Shown here one piece after another: positions 1 through 4,433 of a stretch of DNA of 36,312 nucleotides. The notes under the pieces were generated by a model that did not search any database, was not told where the DNA came from, and saw only the letters and a program-made list of their open reading frames with translations. Origin of the DNA: a virus (taxonomy: Duplodnaviria > Heunggongvirae > Uroviricota > Caudoviricetes); the IMG/VR virus record IMGVR_UViG_2579778938_000006. One strand, given 5' to 3'. The position numbers and the translations under genes are program-made. Numbering within the stretch: position 1 is the stretch's first letter; every line of letters starts with the position of its first letter.

Positions 1-756
1 TTACGGGGTAATGCCAACCGCTGCCGCCACTTTGTCGCCACTAGTGCTTTGTTTTTCGAATTCATCTAAGGCTCTTTCAACATCAGAAAGATACTCTTTG
101 AATGAGTTCAAGATCATGCTTAACGAGCCCCCCATAAATAGGACCTGTTTTCCATCTTTTTTAAAAAAATCAGGATATTTTTCTATAAGTTCAATAATGC
201 TTTTAATATTTTGCCCGTCGTTTTCTAAGTATTTTGCATCATTATGCGCACAACTGTTTCTTAATTTTGTTATTTTTTTGATATTCGAATAGTGGGATGT
301 TGACTTCATCCCTATCATTTTTTTGATAAATAGATGGCTCCTCTCAAATCCACTTCCTTTGAGATCTGAAACATTTATAGGAGAATGATGTCTATTAGCA
401 AAGTTGTTACAGAATTTTTCTATTTCGTGTTCAAAAATTCCGAATATAGTTAAGAATACTGACCTGCGGATAATACTTGGGTAGTATTCTAAAAACATTT
501 CATCGAGATCTAGCGATGAGCTGGTGAGTCCCATGTAATGATCAATTGACTGGTATACACCATCTTCCGGAGATATTTCAATTATATATTCTTCAGGTCC
601 TTTGTCTTTATATTCTGCTATGCCCTTAGCGATTGATGATTCGCTATGAGTGATTAACGTCTCGATAATATCAAATGTTAAAGAGAAGTCGAATATTGGT
701 AATTGAAACAAAAACTTAACCATGCTTGAGCCTTTAAGAATCTGATTTAGTAACAT
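1..756 (-). CDS. Hypothetical cargo protein (~240-251 aa) with RNxxAH (HEPN-like) motif; candidate Abi/defence or toxin protein
   Basis: AT-rich ORF downstream of int on the same strand; alternative start at 723 (MVKF...) has an AAAGG Shine-Dalgarno and avoids the overlap with int; contains LRNSCAHN; last codons cross the attL core. Confidence 0.55.
   Translation of the reverse strand: MLLNQILKGSSMVKFLFQLPIFDFSLTFDIIETLITHSESSIAKGIAEYKDKGPEEYIIEISPEDGVYQSIDHYMGLTSSSLDLDEMFLEYYPSIIRRSVFLTIFGIFEHEIEKFCNNFANRHHSPINVSDLKGSGFERSHLFIKKMIGMKSTSHYSNIKKITKLRNSCAHNDAKYLENDGQNIKSIIELIEKYPDFFKKDGKQVLFMGGSLSMILNSFKEYLSDVERALDEFEKQSTSGDKVAAAVGITP
19..40. repeat. attL: attL core candidate (cgctgccgccactttgtcgcca)
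   Basis: Matches 33458..33479 at 21 of 22 positions; lies just beyond the 3' end of int as in P2-like prophages. Confidence 0.6.
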
Positions 757-1765
757 CCAAAGTTGCTAGTGGATTGAAACGAAGAGCTGTCTCTAAGTGA
801 TCAGGTGATAGATGAGCATAACGCATAGTCATTTTTATGTCGTGATGTCCGAGGATTTTTTGCAAAGCAAGGATGTTTCCACCCGACATCATGAAATGCG
901 CCGCAAACGTATGGCGCAGAACGTGTGTCAGTTGACCGCGAGGGAGTACGATAGACGTTTTTTCCATCACAGATAAAAATTGAAAATAGCAGTCTGTGAA
1001 GAAATTGAACCCATCAAGCGCCATGATCTCTTCGTAAAGGTCTTTACTGATAGGGATGCTTCTGTTTTTCTTCCCTTTCGTTCTTACAAAGGTAATTCGG
1101 TATTTGGTTACCTGTGAGCGGGTAAGATTTACGGCTTCACGCCAGCGTGCGCCTGTGCTTAAGCATATCTTAACTACCAGTGCCAGTATTGGGTCCTGAC
1201 GTTTGCAATCAGCCAGCAATTCAACAATCTGCTCATGAGTAAGCCATGCCATCTCCTTTTCTGCGATGGTGAATTTTCGCATGTTCTCCAGTGGGTTCGG
1301 ATACGACCATTCGCCAAGGCGGGATAGTTCGCTAAAAACACTACTTAGATAGCTTTGCTCCAGGTTAATGGTGACCGGGCTTGCTCCTTTCTTCCATTTC
1401 TCGCTGAAGTAGATCTCGCCTGTCAGGCGTTTATCTCGATAGTGGGCAAACATTTTAGAGGTGAGATCAGTTGCAAGGGGATTGCCCAGAGCGTCAACCA
1501 TCAGCAGCAATTTGTCATAGACATGCTGCCCAGCAGTCAGTGATTTACCATGTAGTTTGAACCATAGCTCAACCACGTCTTTCAGTGTTCGACGATCCAC
1601 TGATTCACCTAGCCAGGGCTTTGCTTCGGTTTCTTCCATCGTGTGACGCTCAAAAGCCAGTGCTTCGCCTTTGGTGGCGAATTGTTTACGCACACGACGC
1701 CCACTACGTCCGGCGGGGTAACATTCGCAAAGCCATTTTCCTGTGGTGAGTTTTCGTACAGCCAT
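734..1765 (-). CDS. int: Tyrosine integrase (P2/186 Int family)
   Basis: Translation has conserved tyrosine-recombinase blocks (LSTGARWREA, HVLRHTFAAHFM, ILGHHDIKMTMRYAHL); likely start MAVRKLTTGKW at 1765 rather than the upstream ATG at 1921. Confidence 0.9.
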   Translation of the reverse strand: MAVRKLTTGKWLCECYPAGRSGRRVRKQFATKGEALAFERHTMEETEAKPWLGESVDRRTLKDVVELWFKLHGKSLTAGQHVYDKLLLMVDALGNPLATDLTSKMFAHYRDKRLTGEIYFSEKWKKGASPVTINLEQSYLSSVFSELSRLGEWSYPNPLENMRKFTIAEKEMAWLTHEQIVELLADCKRQDPILALVVKICLSTGARWREAVNLTRSQVTKYRITFVRTKGKKNRSIPISKDLYEEIMALDGFNFFTDCYFQFLSVMEKTSIVLPRGQLTHVLRHTFAAHFMMSGGNILALQKILGHHDIKMTMRYAHLSPDHLETALRFNPLATLDVTKSDS

Positions 1766-1953
1766 AAAAAATGCCCTCCAATAGAGAGCATTTTTACTGT
1801 ATGCATAACCAGTGTCAATGTATGAAATCCTACGACCATACATCTCACTGAAGCCATAATTAAGTTGGCTATTCTTTTTGCTATGTGAGCATGTAATTTT
1901 TGCGTTTAACCTGCGGCTCATTTTTATTTTAGGCGCAGATATAAAAGCAAAAG

Positions 1954-2145
1954 TTATCGTGAGTTTTTAGTACAGATTTTTTTGGATTTACTAATAGTTC
2001 CATCATTGCAAACGAATTTGCCATCTGAGGTACAGTGAGAAACACCTCCCTTTTTCCCTGAACAGGGATAATTTCTAGCATAGGTAGTTAGTGGGTTTAA
2101 TAACAAAGAACATGACAAAACCACAAAAAATACCTTACCAAGCAT
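1954..2145 (-). CDS. Small (63 aa) predicted secreted, lysine-rich, 4-Cys peptide in the cI-int operon
   Basis: Strong SD (GGAGGA) 5 nt upstream of ATG, 16 bp after the cI stop; N-terminal hydrophobic signal-like segment [23 protein letters not shown]; AT-rich. Confidence 0.5.
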
Positions 2146-2160
2146 AGTTTCCTCCCGGTA

Positions 2161-2736
2161 CTATTTAACATACTTGACTGTTAAACTTATAATTTTACCA
2201 ATTATTTCAATGTCTTCTATCTTGCATTCGAAGGCTCTGTTTCCACCCTCGACGAAGATTCTTCCACCGGGTAAACGAGTAATGTCACGGATCGTTATTT
2301 CGCCATCAATACTTATTACCCATTTACCATCACGTATATCATCAAATTCCTTATCACAAATAAATTCAGAATTATTATCTGTGATTACAAAAAGATTCTT
2401 GAATACCGACGGTAGAAATTCCCTATCGAAAATATAAAAACCGTCTTCACACAAGGCCCCATCAGATAATACATATTTAGCAACTTCCATAGTATTTGTA
2501 TTACCTGAAGTTTGCTTTGAACCATGCCCGGTTGTGAGCCAATTAAGCGAGGTGCCCGTTTCAAGGGCGCACTGGATTACCCATTCTGCGGGGAATGAGT
2601 CACGCATGTAGCGTGTGGCGAGTGTACTTTTAGAGATTCCTAAATGATCGCACAACGCCTGTCGAGTCTTGAATCCATAAGCTTCTACCATGCGCTCTAT
2701 AGCGCCTCGTCCGCCTTTCTCCAAATTCATGGTCAC
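2161..2736 (-). CDS. cI: CI-type immunity repressor (186 CI-like, 191 aa, N-terminal HTH)
   Basis: Position immediately upstream of int on the same strand and divergent from apl/cII; HTH-like segment LCDHLGISKSTLATRYMR; size matches 186 CI rather than the ~100 aa P2 C. Confidence 0.8.
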   Translation of the reverse strand: MTMNLEKGGRGAIERMVEAYGFKTRQALCDHLGISKSTLATRYMRDSFPAEWVIQCALETGTSLNWLTTGHGSKQTSGNTNTMEVAKYVLSDGALCEDGFYIFDREFLPSVFKNLFVITDNNSEFICDKEFDDIRDGKWVISIDGEITIRDITRLPGGRIFVEGGNRAFECKIEDIEIIGKIISLTVKYVK

Positions 2737-2754
2737 TCCAAGTGAACTTTTGTC

Positions 2755-2783
2755 TTGACGATTTCACTGTGCGATCGTATGTT
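2755..2783 (+). promoter_or_regulatory. Candidate rightward lytic promoter (pR-like): -35 TTGACG, 17-nt spacer, -10 TATGTT
   Basis: Sigma70-like hexamers in the cI/apl switch region upstream of apl. Confidence 0.35.
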
Positions 2784-2855
2784 TATGGTGTTCACAAAAT
2801 ACAAACGATCCGTATTCGTCCTGATTAATCATCATTAAACGAGGAATGTTGCATC

Positions 2856-3077
2856 ATGAGACCTAACATTTCAATCACTCTTACCACGCCTCATGTGACT
2901 ATTGAACGCTATAGCGAGCTGACAGGGCTGTCCATCGATACTATCAATGACATGTTGGCTGATGGACGCCTTATCCGTCACCGTTTGCGCAAAGATAAAA
3001 AACGCGAAAAAGTGATGATCAACATAGCAGCCATGACCGTTGATGCGCTTTCAGAATGCAATCTAAACCTTAATTAG
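2856..3077 (+). CDS. apl: Apl/Cox-like excisionase-transcriptional regulator (73 aa)
   Basis: First gene of the rightward early operon facing cI; small basic protein; positional equivalent of 186 Apl / P2 Cox. Confidence 0.6.
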
Positions 3078-3103
3078 TTCGATTCTGAAATACATCAGAG
3101 GCA

Positions 3104-3619
3104 TTGACCATGTTTGATTACCAAGTTTCCAAACATCCACATTTTGATGAAGCCTGTCGTGCATTCGCACTGCGCCACAATCTGGTGCAACTGGCAGAAC
3201 GTGCAGGTATGAATGTGCAGATTCTGCGGAACAAACTGAACCCAGCTCAACCTCATTTATTAACCGCACCAGAAATCTGGCTGCTTACCGATCTGACTGA
3301 AGATTCAACGCTGGTAGATGGTTTTCTGGCACAGATTCATTGTCTGCCATGTGTACCGATTAATGAGGTGGCAAAAGAGAAACTGCCACATTACGTCATG
3401 AGTGCAACCGCAGAGATCGGGCGTGTTGCTGCAGGTGCGGTGTCTGGCGATGTAAAAACCTGTGCCGGTCGTCGTGATGCTATCAGCAGCATTAACTCTG
3501 TAACACGACTGATGGCGCTGGCGGCTGTTTCATTGCAGGCCCGTTTACAGGCTAATCCTGCGATGGCGAGTGCAGTTGATACCGTGACTGGCCTCGGTGC
3601 TTCATTTGGTTTGCTGTGA
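3104..3619 (+). CDS. cII: CII-like lysogeny-establishment activator (171 aa)
   Basis: Second gene of the early operon; size and position as 186 CII. Confidence 0.6.
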
Positions 3620-3626
3620 GGTGCTT

Positions 3627-3827
3627 ATGCTGACGAAAGAACCATCATTTGCATCGCTGCTGGTTAAACAAAGCCCGGCAATGCATTACGGTCACGGCTG
3701 GATCATGGGGGAGGATGGTAAACGCTGGCATCCGTGCCGTTCACAAGATGAATTGCTGGCAGAACTATCTACGAAAAAACGGGGGAACAAATGGCTATTG
3801 AAGGCGCTGCGGCGACTGTTCCATTAA
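3627..3827 (+). CDS. Hypothetical early protein (position of 186 fil)
   Basis: ORF with GAGGTG SD; start taken at internal ATG 3627 after the cII stop. Confidence 0.4.
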   Translation: MLTKEPSFASLLVKQSPAMHYGHGWIMGEDGKRWHPCRSQDELLAELSTKKRGNKWLLKALRRLFH

Positions 3828-4132
3828 GCCCCGGTGAACGCCTGAATGGACTTAATCACATAGCGGAATTAAGGGCGAAAGTTTTTGGCCTGAATATTGA
3901 GTCAGAGCTTGAGCGGTTTATTAAAGATATGCGTGATCCACGGGATATCAATAACGAACAAAATAAACGAGCACTGGCAGCCATATTCTTTATGGCAAAA
4001 ATTCCGGCTGAACGTCATAGCATCAGCATCAATGAGCTGACCACTGACGAAAAGCGGGAGTTGATTAAAGCAATGAATCATTTTCGTGCAGTGGTGAGCT
4101 TATTTCCCAGACGGCTAACCATGCCGAATTAA
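3791..4132 (+). CDS. Hypothetical early protein (113 aa)
   Basis: ORF with GGGGGAA SD in the early operon. Confidence 0.45.
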   Translation: MAIEGAAATVPLSPGERLNGLNHIAELRAKVFGLNIESELERFIKDMRDPRDINNEQNKRALAAIFFMAKIPAERHSISINELTTDEKRELIKAMNHFRAVVSLFPRRLTMPN

Positions 4133-4199
4133 CCAACTAATGAAATTAATGGCGTAAACCCGCCGAGCATCCCTTTATCTAAATTCAGGAGAATTGATT

Positions 4200-4433
4200 A
4201 TGCGTAATATTGAAATCCTCACGACTAAAACCGGACCGGATGATGCTGGGCTTAATATTTTACTGACAGAGGCTCGTCTGGAAGAACGCCGGGCAAGGGC
4301 TGAAGCAATGGCAGCTCGCCTTGATAGCCTGGCGTGTCATATCTCATCCCGTCAGCTAAACCACGTGGAAGCGGCAGAACTGCTGCGTGTGACTGCTGAA
4401 GCAATCCAGAACGAAGCGCAGGAGATCCACTAA
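4200..4433 (+). CDS. Hypothetical early protein (77 aa)
   Basis: AGGAG SD upstream; ATG at 4200. Confidence 0.45.
   Translation: MRNIEILTTKTGPDDAGLNILLTEARLEERRARAEAMAARLDSLACHISSRQLNHVEAAELLRVTAEAIQNEAQEIH

What the first reader, a model, noticed from the sequence alone, without database searches (positions are those of the whole stretch)
1954..2145. Small secreted-type Cys-containing peptide gene between the repressor and integrase
A 63-aa ORF starts 16 bp after the cI stop with a strong GGAGGA SD. It has an N-terminal signal-like hydrophobic segment and a ~40-residue Lys-rich tail with four cysteines ([40 protein letters not shown]). Being in the cI-int lysogenic transcript, it would be made in the lysogen, which fits a lysogenic-conversion factor.
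Basis: inference. Interest (0 to 1): 0.5.

Follow-up and report, generated by a model that had tools for sequence, protein, structure and literature searches.

The report
Prophage copy of periplasmic YdcA mini-protein
The small ORF is a real, strongly conserved gene for an exported, cysteine-bridged, very basic 40-residue protein of the catalogued but uncharacterised YdcA family, which this P2/186-like prophage carries directly behind its repressor gene; what it does is not known.

Summary
A 63-codon ORF lies on the minus strand at 1954-2145, 15 nt after the stop of a 186-type cI, behind a GGGAGGA ribosome site.

It is a real gene. It scores above the curated cut-off of the NCBIfam YdcA model, and RefSeq annotates the 99%-identical region as 'YdcA family protein'. 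The module occurs in about 600-1100 of 5426 complete E. coli genomes. Between homologues the mature part keeps its amino acids while synonymous sites are saturated; the signal part varies freely.

The N-terminus behaves as a signal-peptidase-I signal: Ala at -1 in 32 of 32 sequences, and no lipobox. The product is a 40-residue peptide with four invariant Cys and charge +7.

A strong hairpin plus U6 abuts the int start codon, so cI and this gene probably form the lysogenic mRNA.

The function is unproven. The only solved relative is Legionella Dis2, a type IV secretion cap protein. The same domain heads secreted nucleases of four unrelated families, and the fusion to the non-specific endonuclease is abundant. 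My preferred reading is a periplasmic binder of polyanions, probably DNA, used by the prophage as a lysogen-expressed accessory gene. Envelope anchoring is the main rival.

It is a known family member of moderate interest.

The parts
1954..2145 (-). ydcA-family CDS: 63 codons plus the TAA stop at 1956-1954.
   Evidence: ORF list and sequence. NF007463 115.8 bits against a cut-off of 93. phrog_6000 1.9e-34. RefSeq labels the 99%-identical region 'YdcA family protein'. Purifying selection.
2077..2145 (-). Predicted Sec signal peptide, residues 1-23 ([23 protein letters not shown]), with signal peptidase I cleavage after TYA.
   Evidence: The hydrophobic core [12 protein letters not shown] has mean Kyte-Doolittle hydropathy 2.86. 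There is no lipobox. Ala at -1 in 32 of 32 homologues and A/S/T/V at -3 in 32 of 32. This part diverges freely, pN about 0.5. No dedicated signal-peptide predictor was available.
1957..2076 (-). Mature 40-residue YdcA domain, [40 protein letters not shown]: four invariant Cys, 4.3 kDa, pI 9.7, net charge about +7.
Evidence: Nearly invariant core across alpha-, beta- and gammaproteobacteria. Sequence and fold similarity to Dis2. Charge statistics.
2150..2156 (-). Shine-Dalgarno sequence GGGAGGA, 4 nt before the ATG.
   Evidence: Read directly from the sequence.
2161..2736 (-). 186-type cI repressor, the upstream gene of the same operon. The likely ATG is at 2730; the ORF is open from the GTG at 2736.
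   Evidence: Pfam Phage_CI_repr 2.8e-33 and Phage_CI_C 6.3e-27. RefSeq 'phage repressor protein CI', 189 aa.
1766..1795 (-). Terminator-like hairpin (13 bp including the A-U extension; core UGCUCUCU/GGAGGGCA) followed by U6. It directly abuts the int ATG (1765-1763), and the int Shine-Dalgarno sequence lies in its 3' arm. It probably ends or attenuates the cI-ydcA transcript.
   Evidence: RNAfold -21.1 kcal/mol with z -5.9 for the 56-nt stretch 1755-1810 that contains it; the hairpin is also present in the fold of the longer 206-nt stretch. It is kept in all sibling loci. In the KAP-NTPase variant a hairpin of different sequence (AGUCCUCA/UGAGGACU plus U6) sits at the same place. The simple terminator scan did not list it.
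734..1765 (-). P2-type tyrosine integrase. The true start is MAVRKL at 1765; the mechanical ORF runs up to 1921.
   Evidence: Pfam Int_N 3.6e-32 and Phage_integrase 2e-21. RefSeq integrase of 350 aa in the sibling prophage. GGAGGG lies 8 nt before the ATG.

Best explanation
Identity: the ORF encodes a YdcA-family pre-protein (PF27300, PRK10040). It is exported by Sec and cut by signal peptidase I after Ala23. It folds in the periplasm into a 40-residue, two-disulfide, strongly basic mini-domain.

Expression: it is translated from its own strong ribosome site on the leftward lysogenic mRNA that starts with cI. That mRNA probably ends, or is attenuated, at a hairpin plus U6 that also buries the int ribosome site. 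The peptide would therefore be made continuously in the lysogen. It is a small accessory gene ('moron') fixed next to the repressor, as in Haemophilus phage HP2.

Mechanism (inferred): the YdcA domain is a stand-alone binding module for an invariant anionic ligand in the cell envelope. That ligand is most likely nucleic acid, because the same domain is the N-terminal module of secreted nucleases from four unrelated families. As a free peptide in a lysogen it would bind DNA that passes through the periplasm. That could interfere with entry of foreign DNA by superinfection, transformation or conjugation, or otherwise change the properties of the envelope.

How sure each step is:
- The gene is real, belongs to the family, has its operon position and is conserved: shown here.
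- Signal cleavage and disulfide bonds: strongly inferred.
- Expression in the lysogen: inferred from the layout of the operon.
- The ligand and the benefit to the phage: hypothesis. I put DNA or another polyanion at about 0.35-0.4, and any exclusion phenotype lower.
For: Family membership:
- NF007463 115.8 bits against a cut-off of 93.
- Homologues carry precomputed PF27300 'YdcA'.
- The RefSeq label is 'YdcA family protein'.
- K-12 YdcA has the same motif.

Export:
- The -3/-1 positions fit signal peptidase I in 32 of 32 sequences, the h-region is variable, and there is no conserved Cys or lipobox.
- The literature calls K-12 YdcA a predicted periplasmic protein with a signal sequence (PMC11340327).
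- Dis2, the only solved relative, has its disulfides visible in the cryo-EM map (PMC8486379).

Selection: mature part pN 0.04-0.10 against pS 0.7-0.9; signal part pN about 0.5.

Operon:
- The gap after cI is 15 nt.
- In HP2 the ATG overlaps the cI stop, downstream of the annotated pL.
- A hairpin plus U6 precedes int, and a sibling prophage has a different sequence forming the same structure.

Ligand:
- The core domain is always basic: mean +4 over 33-34 residues, and 121 of 140 are +3 or more.
- It is nearly invariant across alpha-, beta- and gammaproteobacteria, which argues for a universal target.
- The domain is fused N-terminally to SNase, Endonuclease_NS, a PLD-type domain (PLDc_2) and, more weakly, HNH.
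- All 120 listed hits of 744 to one such endonuclease carry PF27300 plus PF01223, including Methylobacter isolates.
- A further SNase fusion is seen in locus L073.

Mobile elements:
- It occurs in P2-, Mu- and other prophage contexts.
- It occurs in Moraxella, Acinetobacter, Haemophilus and Pseudomonas phages.
- A 3.9-kb mobilisable plasmid spends one of its five genes on it.
Against: - No experiment shows expression, export or any ligand.
- No signal-peptide predictor could be run.
- In Dis2 the domain makes protein-protein contacts with DotC, DotD and DotK next to the outer membrane, not with DNA. Its deletion has almost no phenotype (PMC12716638).
- Nuclease fusions would fit a cell-envelope anchor equally well.
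- Other associations point to trans-envelope machines rather than DNA: a VasL fusion and a type VI secretion cluster.
- Most family members are stand-alone and chromosomal, with heterogeneous neighbours.
- K-12 ydcA has been linked to acid and 3-hydroxypropionate tolerance, not to DNA or phage (PMC7642389).
- There was no hit among PADLOC defence models.
- The hairpin was not picked up by the simple terminator scan, and its activity is untested.
Confidence: 0.55

Rival explanations
1. Envelope-anchoring or stabilising module. The basic disulfide domain binds the inner face of the outer membrane, peptidoglycan, or lipoproteins of trans-envelope machines. In fusion proteins it tethers enzymes to the envelope. 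As a free peptide it modifies envelope properties such as stress tolerance or the function of secretion or uptake machines, which benefits the lysogen.
For: - Dis2 sits next to the outer membrane. It contacts the lipoproteins DotC and DotD (its N-terminal tail) and the OmpA-like DotK (PMC8486379; PMC12716638).
- One family member is fused to VasL, and one lies inside a type VI secretion cluster.
- Fusion proteins have long Ser/Gly/Ala/Thr/Lys/Pro-rich linkers, typical of tethers.
- A K-12 ydcA deletion is sensitive to 3-hydroxypropionate, and the gene is reported as acid-induced (PMC7642389).
Against: - Every enzymatic fusion partner found is a nuclease, from four families. There is no mixture of periplasmic enzymes, as a generic anchor would predict.
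- No known membrane- or peptidoglycan-binding fold was matched.
- The Dis2 deletion leaves the complex intact.
Confidence: 0.25
2. Classical superinfection-exclusion or entry-exclusion protein that works by protein-protein inhibition. The peptide would bind a specific host or incoming component, such as a receptor, a tail-tip or tape-measure protein, or a type IV secretion cap, in the manner of P1 Sim or plasmid TrbK.
For: - It is expressed from the immunity operon.
- It is small and periplasmic.
- It is carried by many temperate phages and small plasmids.
- Its Dis2 relative binds type IV secretion cap proteins.
- A UniRef entry names the cluster 'Conjugal transfer protein'.
Against: - The core domain is about 70-80% identical between phages of Escherichia, Haemophilus, Moraxella and Acinetobacter, and it also sits at non-mobile chromosomal loci. 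A partner-specific inhibitor should co-vary with its target.
- There is no lipobox, unlike Llp, Cor, Ltp or TrbK.
- There was no PADLOC hit.
- The UniRef name is an unverified label.
Confidence: 0.12
3. Secreted cationic antimicrobial or bacteriocin-like peptide, defensin-like, used by the lysogen against competitors.
For: It is a 40-residue peptide with charge +7 and two probable disulfides. A comparative-genomics paper lists a YdcA-family gene among loci associated with antimicrobial-positive Pseudomonas strains (PMC13541209).
Against: - No immunity, processing or export genes are adjacent.
- A Sec signal alone leaves the peptide in the producer's own periplasm.
- The domain is a stable module of larger enzymes and of Dis2.
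- The cited association is correlative only.
Confidence: 0.04
4. Spurious or decaying ORF with no function: intergenic filler between cI and int.
For: It is short, lies in AT-rich sequence, and has no Pfam hit in the local library.
Against: It scores above cut-off on NCBIfam. It shows strong purifying selection with saturated synonymous sites. Homologues fall into 608 clusters at 90% identity and 449 representatives at 50% identity. It has a canonical ribosome site.
Confidence: 0.01

Closest known systems
E. coli K-12 YdcA (b1419) and the YdcA family (Pfam PF27300; NCBIfam PRK10040 models NF007462, NF007463, NF007464; phrog_6000)
   Same: Same architecture: a signal peptide followed by a domain of about 35 residues with four Cys. 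Same motif, CSGxKGG[VI]xHC...F[VI]CNDGxxSxSKKxC. The window protein passes the curated cut-off of NF007463.
   Different: It is a paralogue of the chromosomal K-12 gene, not its orthologue: NF007462 scores only 68.5 bits against a cut-off of 118. It sits in a prophage immunity operon, whereas K-12 ydcA lies between rydC and hokB and is reported to be under YdcI control. The family has no established function.
[quoted passage not shown]
   Same: It is the only solved relative. phmmer gives E 3e-5, the profile 5e-5, and Foldseek probability 0.97 with 38% identity over 39 columns. It shares the signal peptide, the CSKxGG[VI]xxC...VCN[ND]GxxS motif and the disulfide-rich fold.
   Different: Dis2 has two tandem lobes pinned by five disulfides and is a stoichiometric part of a secretion machine. 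The window protein has one lobe and four Cys, and no secretion-system genes lie nearby.
YdcA-domain secreted nucleases: Endonuclease_NS of Methylobacter/Methylococcales, and the SNase, PLDc_2 and HNH fusions
   Same: The same domain sits directly after the signal peptide.
   Different: Those proteins carry a linker and a catalytic nuclease domain. The window protein is the domain alone, with a 5-residue basic tail.
Unannotated ORF after cI in Haemophilus phages HP2 and S2
   Same: Same family, same position (directly after a 191-aa 186-type CI, upstream of int, in the pL operon) and same length class, 60 aa.
   Different: In HP2 the ATG overlaps the cI stop, and a further secreted protein, orf1(S), lies between it and int. 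It is not annotated in the GenBank record.
Periplasmic or lipoprotein exclusion factors of temperate phages and plasmids (P1 Sim, T5 Llp, phi80/HK022 Cor, TP-J34 Ltp, RP4 TrbK). The comparison rests on my own knowledge, not on a test here.
   Same: A small exported protein made by the resident element, which could act on incoming DNA or particles in the envelope.
   Different: No sequence relationship was detected in Pfam, PHROGs or PADLOC. There is no lipobox. No exclusion phenotype is known.

Membership tests
YdcA family (NCBIfam NF007463 / PRK10040.1-2; Pfam PF27300) | Whole-protein score above the curated model cut-off. | tested here: met
   NF007463 gives 115.8 bits against a cut-off of 93, covering residues 5-63 of 63. 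PF27300 is not in the local Pfam copy, but the 98%-identical cluster representative P0001 and all close homologues carry precomputed PF27300.1.
YdcA family | N-terminal cleavable signal peptide followed directly by the domain. | tested here: met
   Ala at -1 and A/S/T/V at -3 in 32 of 32 sequences, with a hydrophobic core of 12 residues. The domain starts at median residue 24 across the family. No SignalP run was possible.
YdcA family | Four conserved Cys and the CSGKKGG[VI]xHC / F[VI]CxDG / SxSK motifs. | tested here: met
   All are present. There are four Cys in 140 of 140 domains.
Orthologue of chromosomal E. coli K-12 ydcA (NF007462 / PRK10040.1-1) | Score above the equivalog cut-off and the same chromosomal neighbourhood (cybB-rydC-ydcA-hokB). 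| tested here: not met
   68.5 bits against a cut-off of 118. The neighbours here are cI and int, not cybB and hokB.
Dis2 (Dot/Icm type IV secretion cap component) | Two tandem lobes joined by five disulfides. | tested here: not met
   The window protein has a single lobe and four Cys, against the Dis2 description in PMC8486379.
Dis2 (Dot/Icm type IV secretion cap component) | Encoded in a genome with a Dot/Icm system, and assembled into it. | tested here: not met
   The window is a P2/186-like prophage. No secretion-system genes were seen near the locus. Physical association cannot be tested.
Lipoprotein superinfection- or entry-exclusion factors (Llp, Cor, Ltp, TrbK type) | Lipobox with an invariant Cys at +1 of the mature protein. 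| tested here: not met
   There is no [LVI][ASTVI][GAS]C match. Cys12 in the signal is present in only 8 of 32 homologues.
Lysogenic-conversion gene (moron) of a temperate phage | Located in a transcript that is active in the lysogen. | tested here: inconclusive
   The layout fits: it starts 15 nt after cI on the same strand, no terminator-like site was predicted within cI or the ORF, and in HP2 the homologue lies downstream of the annotated pL. No transcript data are available.
Lysogenic-conversion gene (moron) of a temperate phage | Confers a phenotype on the lysogen that is dispensable for phage growth. | not testable with these tools
   No tblastn match was found in any enterobacterial phage record of the collection, which fits a dispensable gene. 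No phenotype is known.
Known anti-phage defence systems (PADLOC) | Match to a defence-system protein model. | tested here: not met
   No family at E 0.01 or better.

The most novel reading that the evidence does not exclude
The YdcA domain is an unrecognised, disulfide-stabilised, 35-residue periplasmic or extracellular DNA-binding module. Secreted nucleases use it to capture substrate. Temperate phages and small plasmids carry the free domain as a new kind of exclusion factor. That factor would coat or trap DNA crossing the periplasm, blocking superinfection, conjugative entry or natural transformation. This would protect the prophage from being replaced, which would explain why the domain is found in phages of the naturally competent genera Haemophilus, Moraxella and Acinetobacter. 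As a corollary, Dis2 of the Dot/Icm system, published as Legionella-specific and without homologues, would be a tandem copy of this widespread domain.
Probability: 0.15. Interest if true: 0.7.

Novelty: already known. Interest (0 to 1): 0.33.

Why it matters
The gene itself is ordinary. It is an already catalogued family member present in roughly a tenth to a fifth of complete E. coli genomes.

It matters in three modest ways.
- It marks a conserved cargo slot directly behind the repressor of 186/HP2-type phages. Sibling prophages also place a KAP-NTPase defence candidate there.
- YdcA is a widespread protein of unknown function in E. coli K-12. The nuclease fusions and the Dis2 relationship found here give the first concrete, testable ideas about its ligand.
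- The function is cheap to test with a 40-residue peptide that can be synthesised.

If the peptide proved to be a periplasmic DNA binder that limits DNA entry, it would be a new class of exclusion factor.

Tried and rejected
- The local Pfam-A copy gave only a sub-threshold chance hit, GULLO2-like at E 0.075. The family model PF27300 is newer than that copy.
- Rfam found nothing meaningful in 1-4200.
- Weak PDB sequence hits to plant Pin-II proteinase inhibitors (E 0.07-1.8) were rejected as Cys-pattern noise.
- The lpg1681 family hit (E 0.11) was rejected as sub-threshold.
- Lipoprotein reading: rejected.
- I looked for a fixed genomic partner in 67 upstream and 64 downstream neighbours from species-level loci. 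None exists.
- PADLOC gave no hit for the ORF.
- A literature search for YdcA with phage, and for 'YdcA family protein', found no functional study.
- The overlapping 50-aa ORF in another frame (1929-2081, minus strand) was rejected, because the substitution pattern fits the 63-aa frame.
- The profile search with the domain alone listed only short stand-alone proteins in its top 120, so it added nothing on domain architecture.

Full report
**What is there**

The window is a P2/186-like prophage. From the left end, on the minus strand, it encodes:
- a 251-aa ORF (1-756);
- a P2-type integrase (734-1765; Int_N 3.6e-32, Phage_integrase 2e-21);
- the ORF in question (1954-2145);
- a 186-type CI repressor (2161-2736; Phage_CI_repr 2.8e-33, Phage_CI_C 6.3e-27).

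On the plus strand follow an Apl-sized ORF, cII, fil, a Dam methylase and the replication gene A. The rest of the window matches P2-family phage structural genes.

Its ATG (2145-2143) lies 15 nt after the cI stop codon, and GGGAGGA lies 4 nt upstream of it.

**Is it a gene?**

Yes, on three grounds.
- It scores 115.8 bits on NCBIfam NF007463 (PRK10040.1-2; cut-off 93) and 1.9e-34 on phrog_6000.
- RefSeq annotates the 99%-identical region in E. coli KE47 as 'phage repressor protein CI | YdcA family protein | phage integrase'. The 1.1-kb module matches in 1103 of 5426 complete E. coli genomes, and 592 of them cover at least 80% of it.
- The 90%-identity cluster has 355 members on at least 1000 contigs, and IMG/VR holds 493 related stretches.

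Codon analysis against homologues separates two parts of the protein.
- In the mature part, synonymous sites are saturated (pS 0.7-0.9) while pN is only 0.04-0.10. A close variant differs by 8 synonymous changes and 1 non-synonymous change.
- In the first 22 codons pN is about 0.5.

This is the signature of a translated protein whose signal peptide needs only to stay hydrophobic.

**Export**

No signal-peptide predictor was available, so I used the family. In an alignment of 32 homologues the N-terminal 20-odd residues are hydrophobic but unconserved. They end in an invariant Ala, and position -3 is always A, S, T or V. The nearly invariant block [34 protein letters not shown] follows directly. 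Cys12 inside the signal is not conserved and there is no lipobox, so the protein is not a lipoprotein.

The mature product would be 40 residues, 4.3 kDa, pI 9.7 and net charge about +7. The literature describes K-12 YdcA (57 aa, same motif) as a predicted periplasmic protein of unknown function (PMC11340327).

**Operon**

The layout puts the gene in the leftward lysogenic operon: a 15-nt gap after cI, its own strong ribosome site, and no terminator-like site predicted within cI or the ORF on that strand.

In Haemophilus phage HP2 I found an unannotated 60-aa homologue, [60 protein letters not shown]. Its ATG overlaps the stop of a 191-aa CI. It lies downstream of the pL promoter annotated in that record and upstream of orf1(S) and int. 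Sibling E. coli prophages have cI - YdcA - KAP NTPase - int.

The slot directly behind the repressor is therefore conserved across Enterobacterales and Pasteurellales. A 186-type CI is the upstream neighbour in 5 of 67 species-level loci.

Between the ORF and int there is a strong hairpin plus U6, AAAAAUGCUCUCUAUUGGAGGGCAUUUUUU, immediately followed by AUG. The 56-nt stretch that contains it folds at -21.1 kcal/mol (z -5.9), and the int ribosome site lies in the 3' arm. All sibling loci keep it. The KAP-NTPase variant has a hairpin of unrelated sequence at the same place, AGUCCUCAGACAUGAGGACUUUUUU followed by AUG.

I infer that cI-ydcA is the main lysogenic message and that int expression is held down by termination, by occlusion of its ribosome site, or by both. 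This is untested, and the simple terminator scan did not list the hairpin.

**What the domain is related to**

A full HMMER scan of 1.84 billion representative proteins found 449 family representatives. A word-indexed profile search found 608 clusters at 90% identity, mostly stand-alone proteins of 55-70 aa. A scan of one genome per species found relatives in alpha-, beta- and gammaproteobacteria.

The only solved relative is Legionella Dis2 (Lpg0823), chain AN of 7MUC/7MUD. The scores are phmmer E 3e-5, profile 5e-5, and Foldseek probability 0.97 with 38% identity. Dis2 consists of two such lobes held by five disulfides. It lies next to the outer membrane in the Dot/Icm cap and touches DotC, DotD and DotK. 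Its authors found no structural homologue and call it Legionella-specific, and its deletion has almost no effect (PMC8486379; PMC12716638). Seeing Dis2 as a tandem YdcA-domain protein is a by-product of this work.

**Clues to function**

- The core domain is always basic. The mean is +4 over 33-34 residues, 121 of 140 are +3 or more, and there are always four Cys.
- It is conserved far more tightly than host-specific envelope proteins would allow. Core identity is 70-80% between Escherichia, Haemophilus, Moraxella and Acinetobacter elements. This points to a universal ligand.
- Among longer family members, the only enzymatic partners are nucleases from four unrelated families: SNase, Endonuclease_NS, a PLD-type domain (PLDc_2) and, more weakly, HNH. 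The YdcA domain always comes directly after the signal peptide and is followed by a low-complexity linker.
- The Endonuclease_NS fusion is not an artefact. All 120 listed hits of 744 to one such protein carry PF27300 plus PF01223, including Methylobacter isolates.
- Non-enzymatic partners are basic Cys-containing 'GPRGGxYC...SGxKSY' tails (a weak PBCV_basic_adap match), one VasL and one DUF4124.
- Mobile elements favour the gene. It occurs in diverse prophage contexts (CI, HTH/S24, Mu Gam, GemA, P22 antirepressor neighbours) and in Moraxella, Acinetobacter, Haemophilus and Pseudomonas phages. It occurs on Acinetobacter plasmids, including a 3.9-kb MOBQ plasmid with only five genes. In a plasmid type VI secretion cluster a YdcA-domain protein sits next to a GIY-YIG nuclease.
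- There is no constant neighbour, so it works alone.

**Mechanism: what I commit to**

Shown: this is a real, conserved gene of the YdcA family in the immunity operon.

Strongly inferred: Sec export, cleavage after Ala23 and two disulfides.

Hypothesis: the domain binds an invariant polyanion of the envelope compartment. DNA is my first choice because of the nuclease fusions, at about 0.35-0.4. The free peptide made by the lysogen would then act on DNA in transit, or on the envelope, to the prophage's advantage.

The main rival, at about 0.25, is an envelope or secretion-machine anchoring role. The position of Dis2 and the VasL and type VI secretion links suggest it. A target-specific exclusion protein (about 0.12) fits poorly with the extreme conservation. 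A bacteriocin-like role (about 0.04) lacks export and immunity genes. A spurious ORF is excluded.

The only published phenotypes concern K-12 ydcA: sensitivity of a deletion to 3-hydroxypropionate, and reported acid induction under YdcI (PMC7642389). They do not discriminate between these readings.

**Novelty and verdict**

But the peptide is an already catalogued family member that RefSeq labels as such, and no conversion phenotype is shown. I rate it 'already known', with interest about 0.33.

The interest lies in three things:
- the testable ligand hypothesis for a widespread protein of unknown function;
- the conserved cargo slot behind cI;
- the link to Dis2.

Noticed in passing
window 1..756 (- strand): A 251-aa ORF lies downstream of int and overlaps its last 23 nt. 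It has weak HEPN/Abi-like matches: RiboL-PSP-HEPN E 0.005, Abi_2 0.04, phrog_21382 9e-10, phrog_2158 'abortive infection' 0.0026, PADLOC HEC-01A 0.005. The sibling prophage in E. coli KE47 lacks it; there int abuts the host gene rcdA. It is a candidate defence cargo gene at the attachment-site end.
   Followed up: partly
window 1766..1795 (- strand): A terminator-like hairpin plus U6 directly abuts the int ATG, and the int ribosome site lies in its 3' arm. The 56-nt stretch that contains it folds at -21.1 kcal/mol (z -5.9). Sibling prophages with a KAP NTPase carry a hairpin of different sequence at the same position, so the structure rather than the sequence is conserved. It probably limits int expression in the lysogen. 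The simple terminator scan missed it.
   Followed up: partly
L001 2920..3102 (Haemophilus phage HP2, NC_003315.1, about 2486-2668 on the complementary strand): An unannotated 60-aa YdcA-family ORF has its ATG overlapping the cI stop codon. It lies upstream of orf1(S), itself a signal-peptide protein, and int. The same match occurs in phage S2.
   Followed up: yes
L005-L008 5198..6529: In sibling 186-like prophages a 443-aa KAP-family NTPase is inserted between ydcA and int. It matches the PADLOC candidate defence model PDC-S20 (E 1e-171) and, more weakly, PifA and QatA. The cI-to-int interval is therefore a variable cargo slot.
   Followed up: partly
PDB 7MUC/7MUD chain AN (Legionella Dis2, Lpg0823): Dis2 is published as Legionella-specific and without structural homologues. 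It is in fact a tandem repeat of the widespread YdcA domain: phmmer E 3e-5, Foldseek probability 0.97.
   Followed up: partly
P0212, P0184, P0119, P0214, P0204; L073 4506..5321: The YdcA domain is the N-terminal module of secreted nucleases of four unrelated families: Endonuclease_NS, SNase, PLDc_2 and HNH. The Endonuclease_NS fusion is abundant, with at least 120 clusters, in Methylobacter and other Methylococcales.
   Followed up: yes
L173 728..904 (Acinetobacter pittii plasmid pApiMCR53a, 3916 bp); L175 4926..5327 (Citrobacter plasmid): A five-gene MOBQ mobilisable plasmid carries a YdcA gene next to a traD-like gene. In a plasmid type VI secretion cluster a 133-aa YdcA-domain protein lies between tssE and a GIY-YIG nuclease, upstream of a VasL-domain gene.
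   Followed up: partly
window 1766..1921 (- strand): The mechanical integrase ORF (395 aa, from the ATG at 1921) over-extends. The real start is MAVRKL at 1765, behind GGAGGG, which matches the 350-aa RefSeq integrase. The 188 nt between the ydcA stop and int are AT-rich non-coding sequence that folds well (z -5.9 for 1755-1960).
   Followed up: partly
L013 (JAEWTL010000113.1, 'Bacillota bacterium' metagenome-assembled genome): This 3-kb contig encodes a YdcA protein identical to the window's and has the same gene layout (a CI-sized ORF upstream, an integrase-sized ORF downstream). It is almost certainly a mis-binned Enterobacteriaceae contig, not a Gram-positive occurrence.
   Followed up: no
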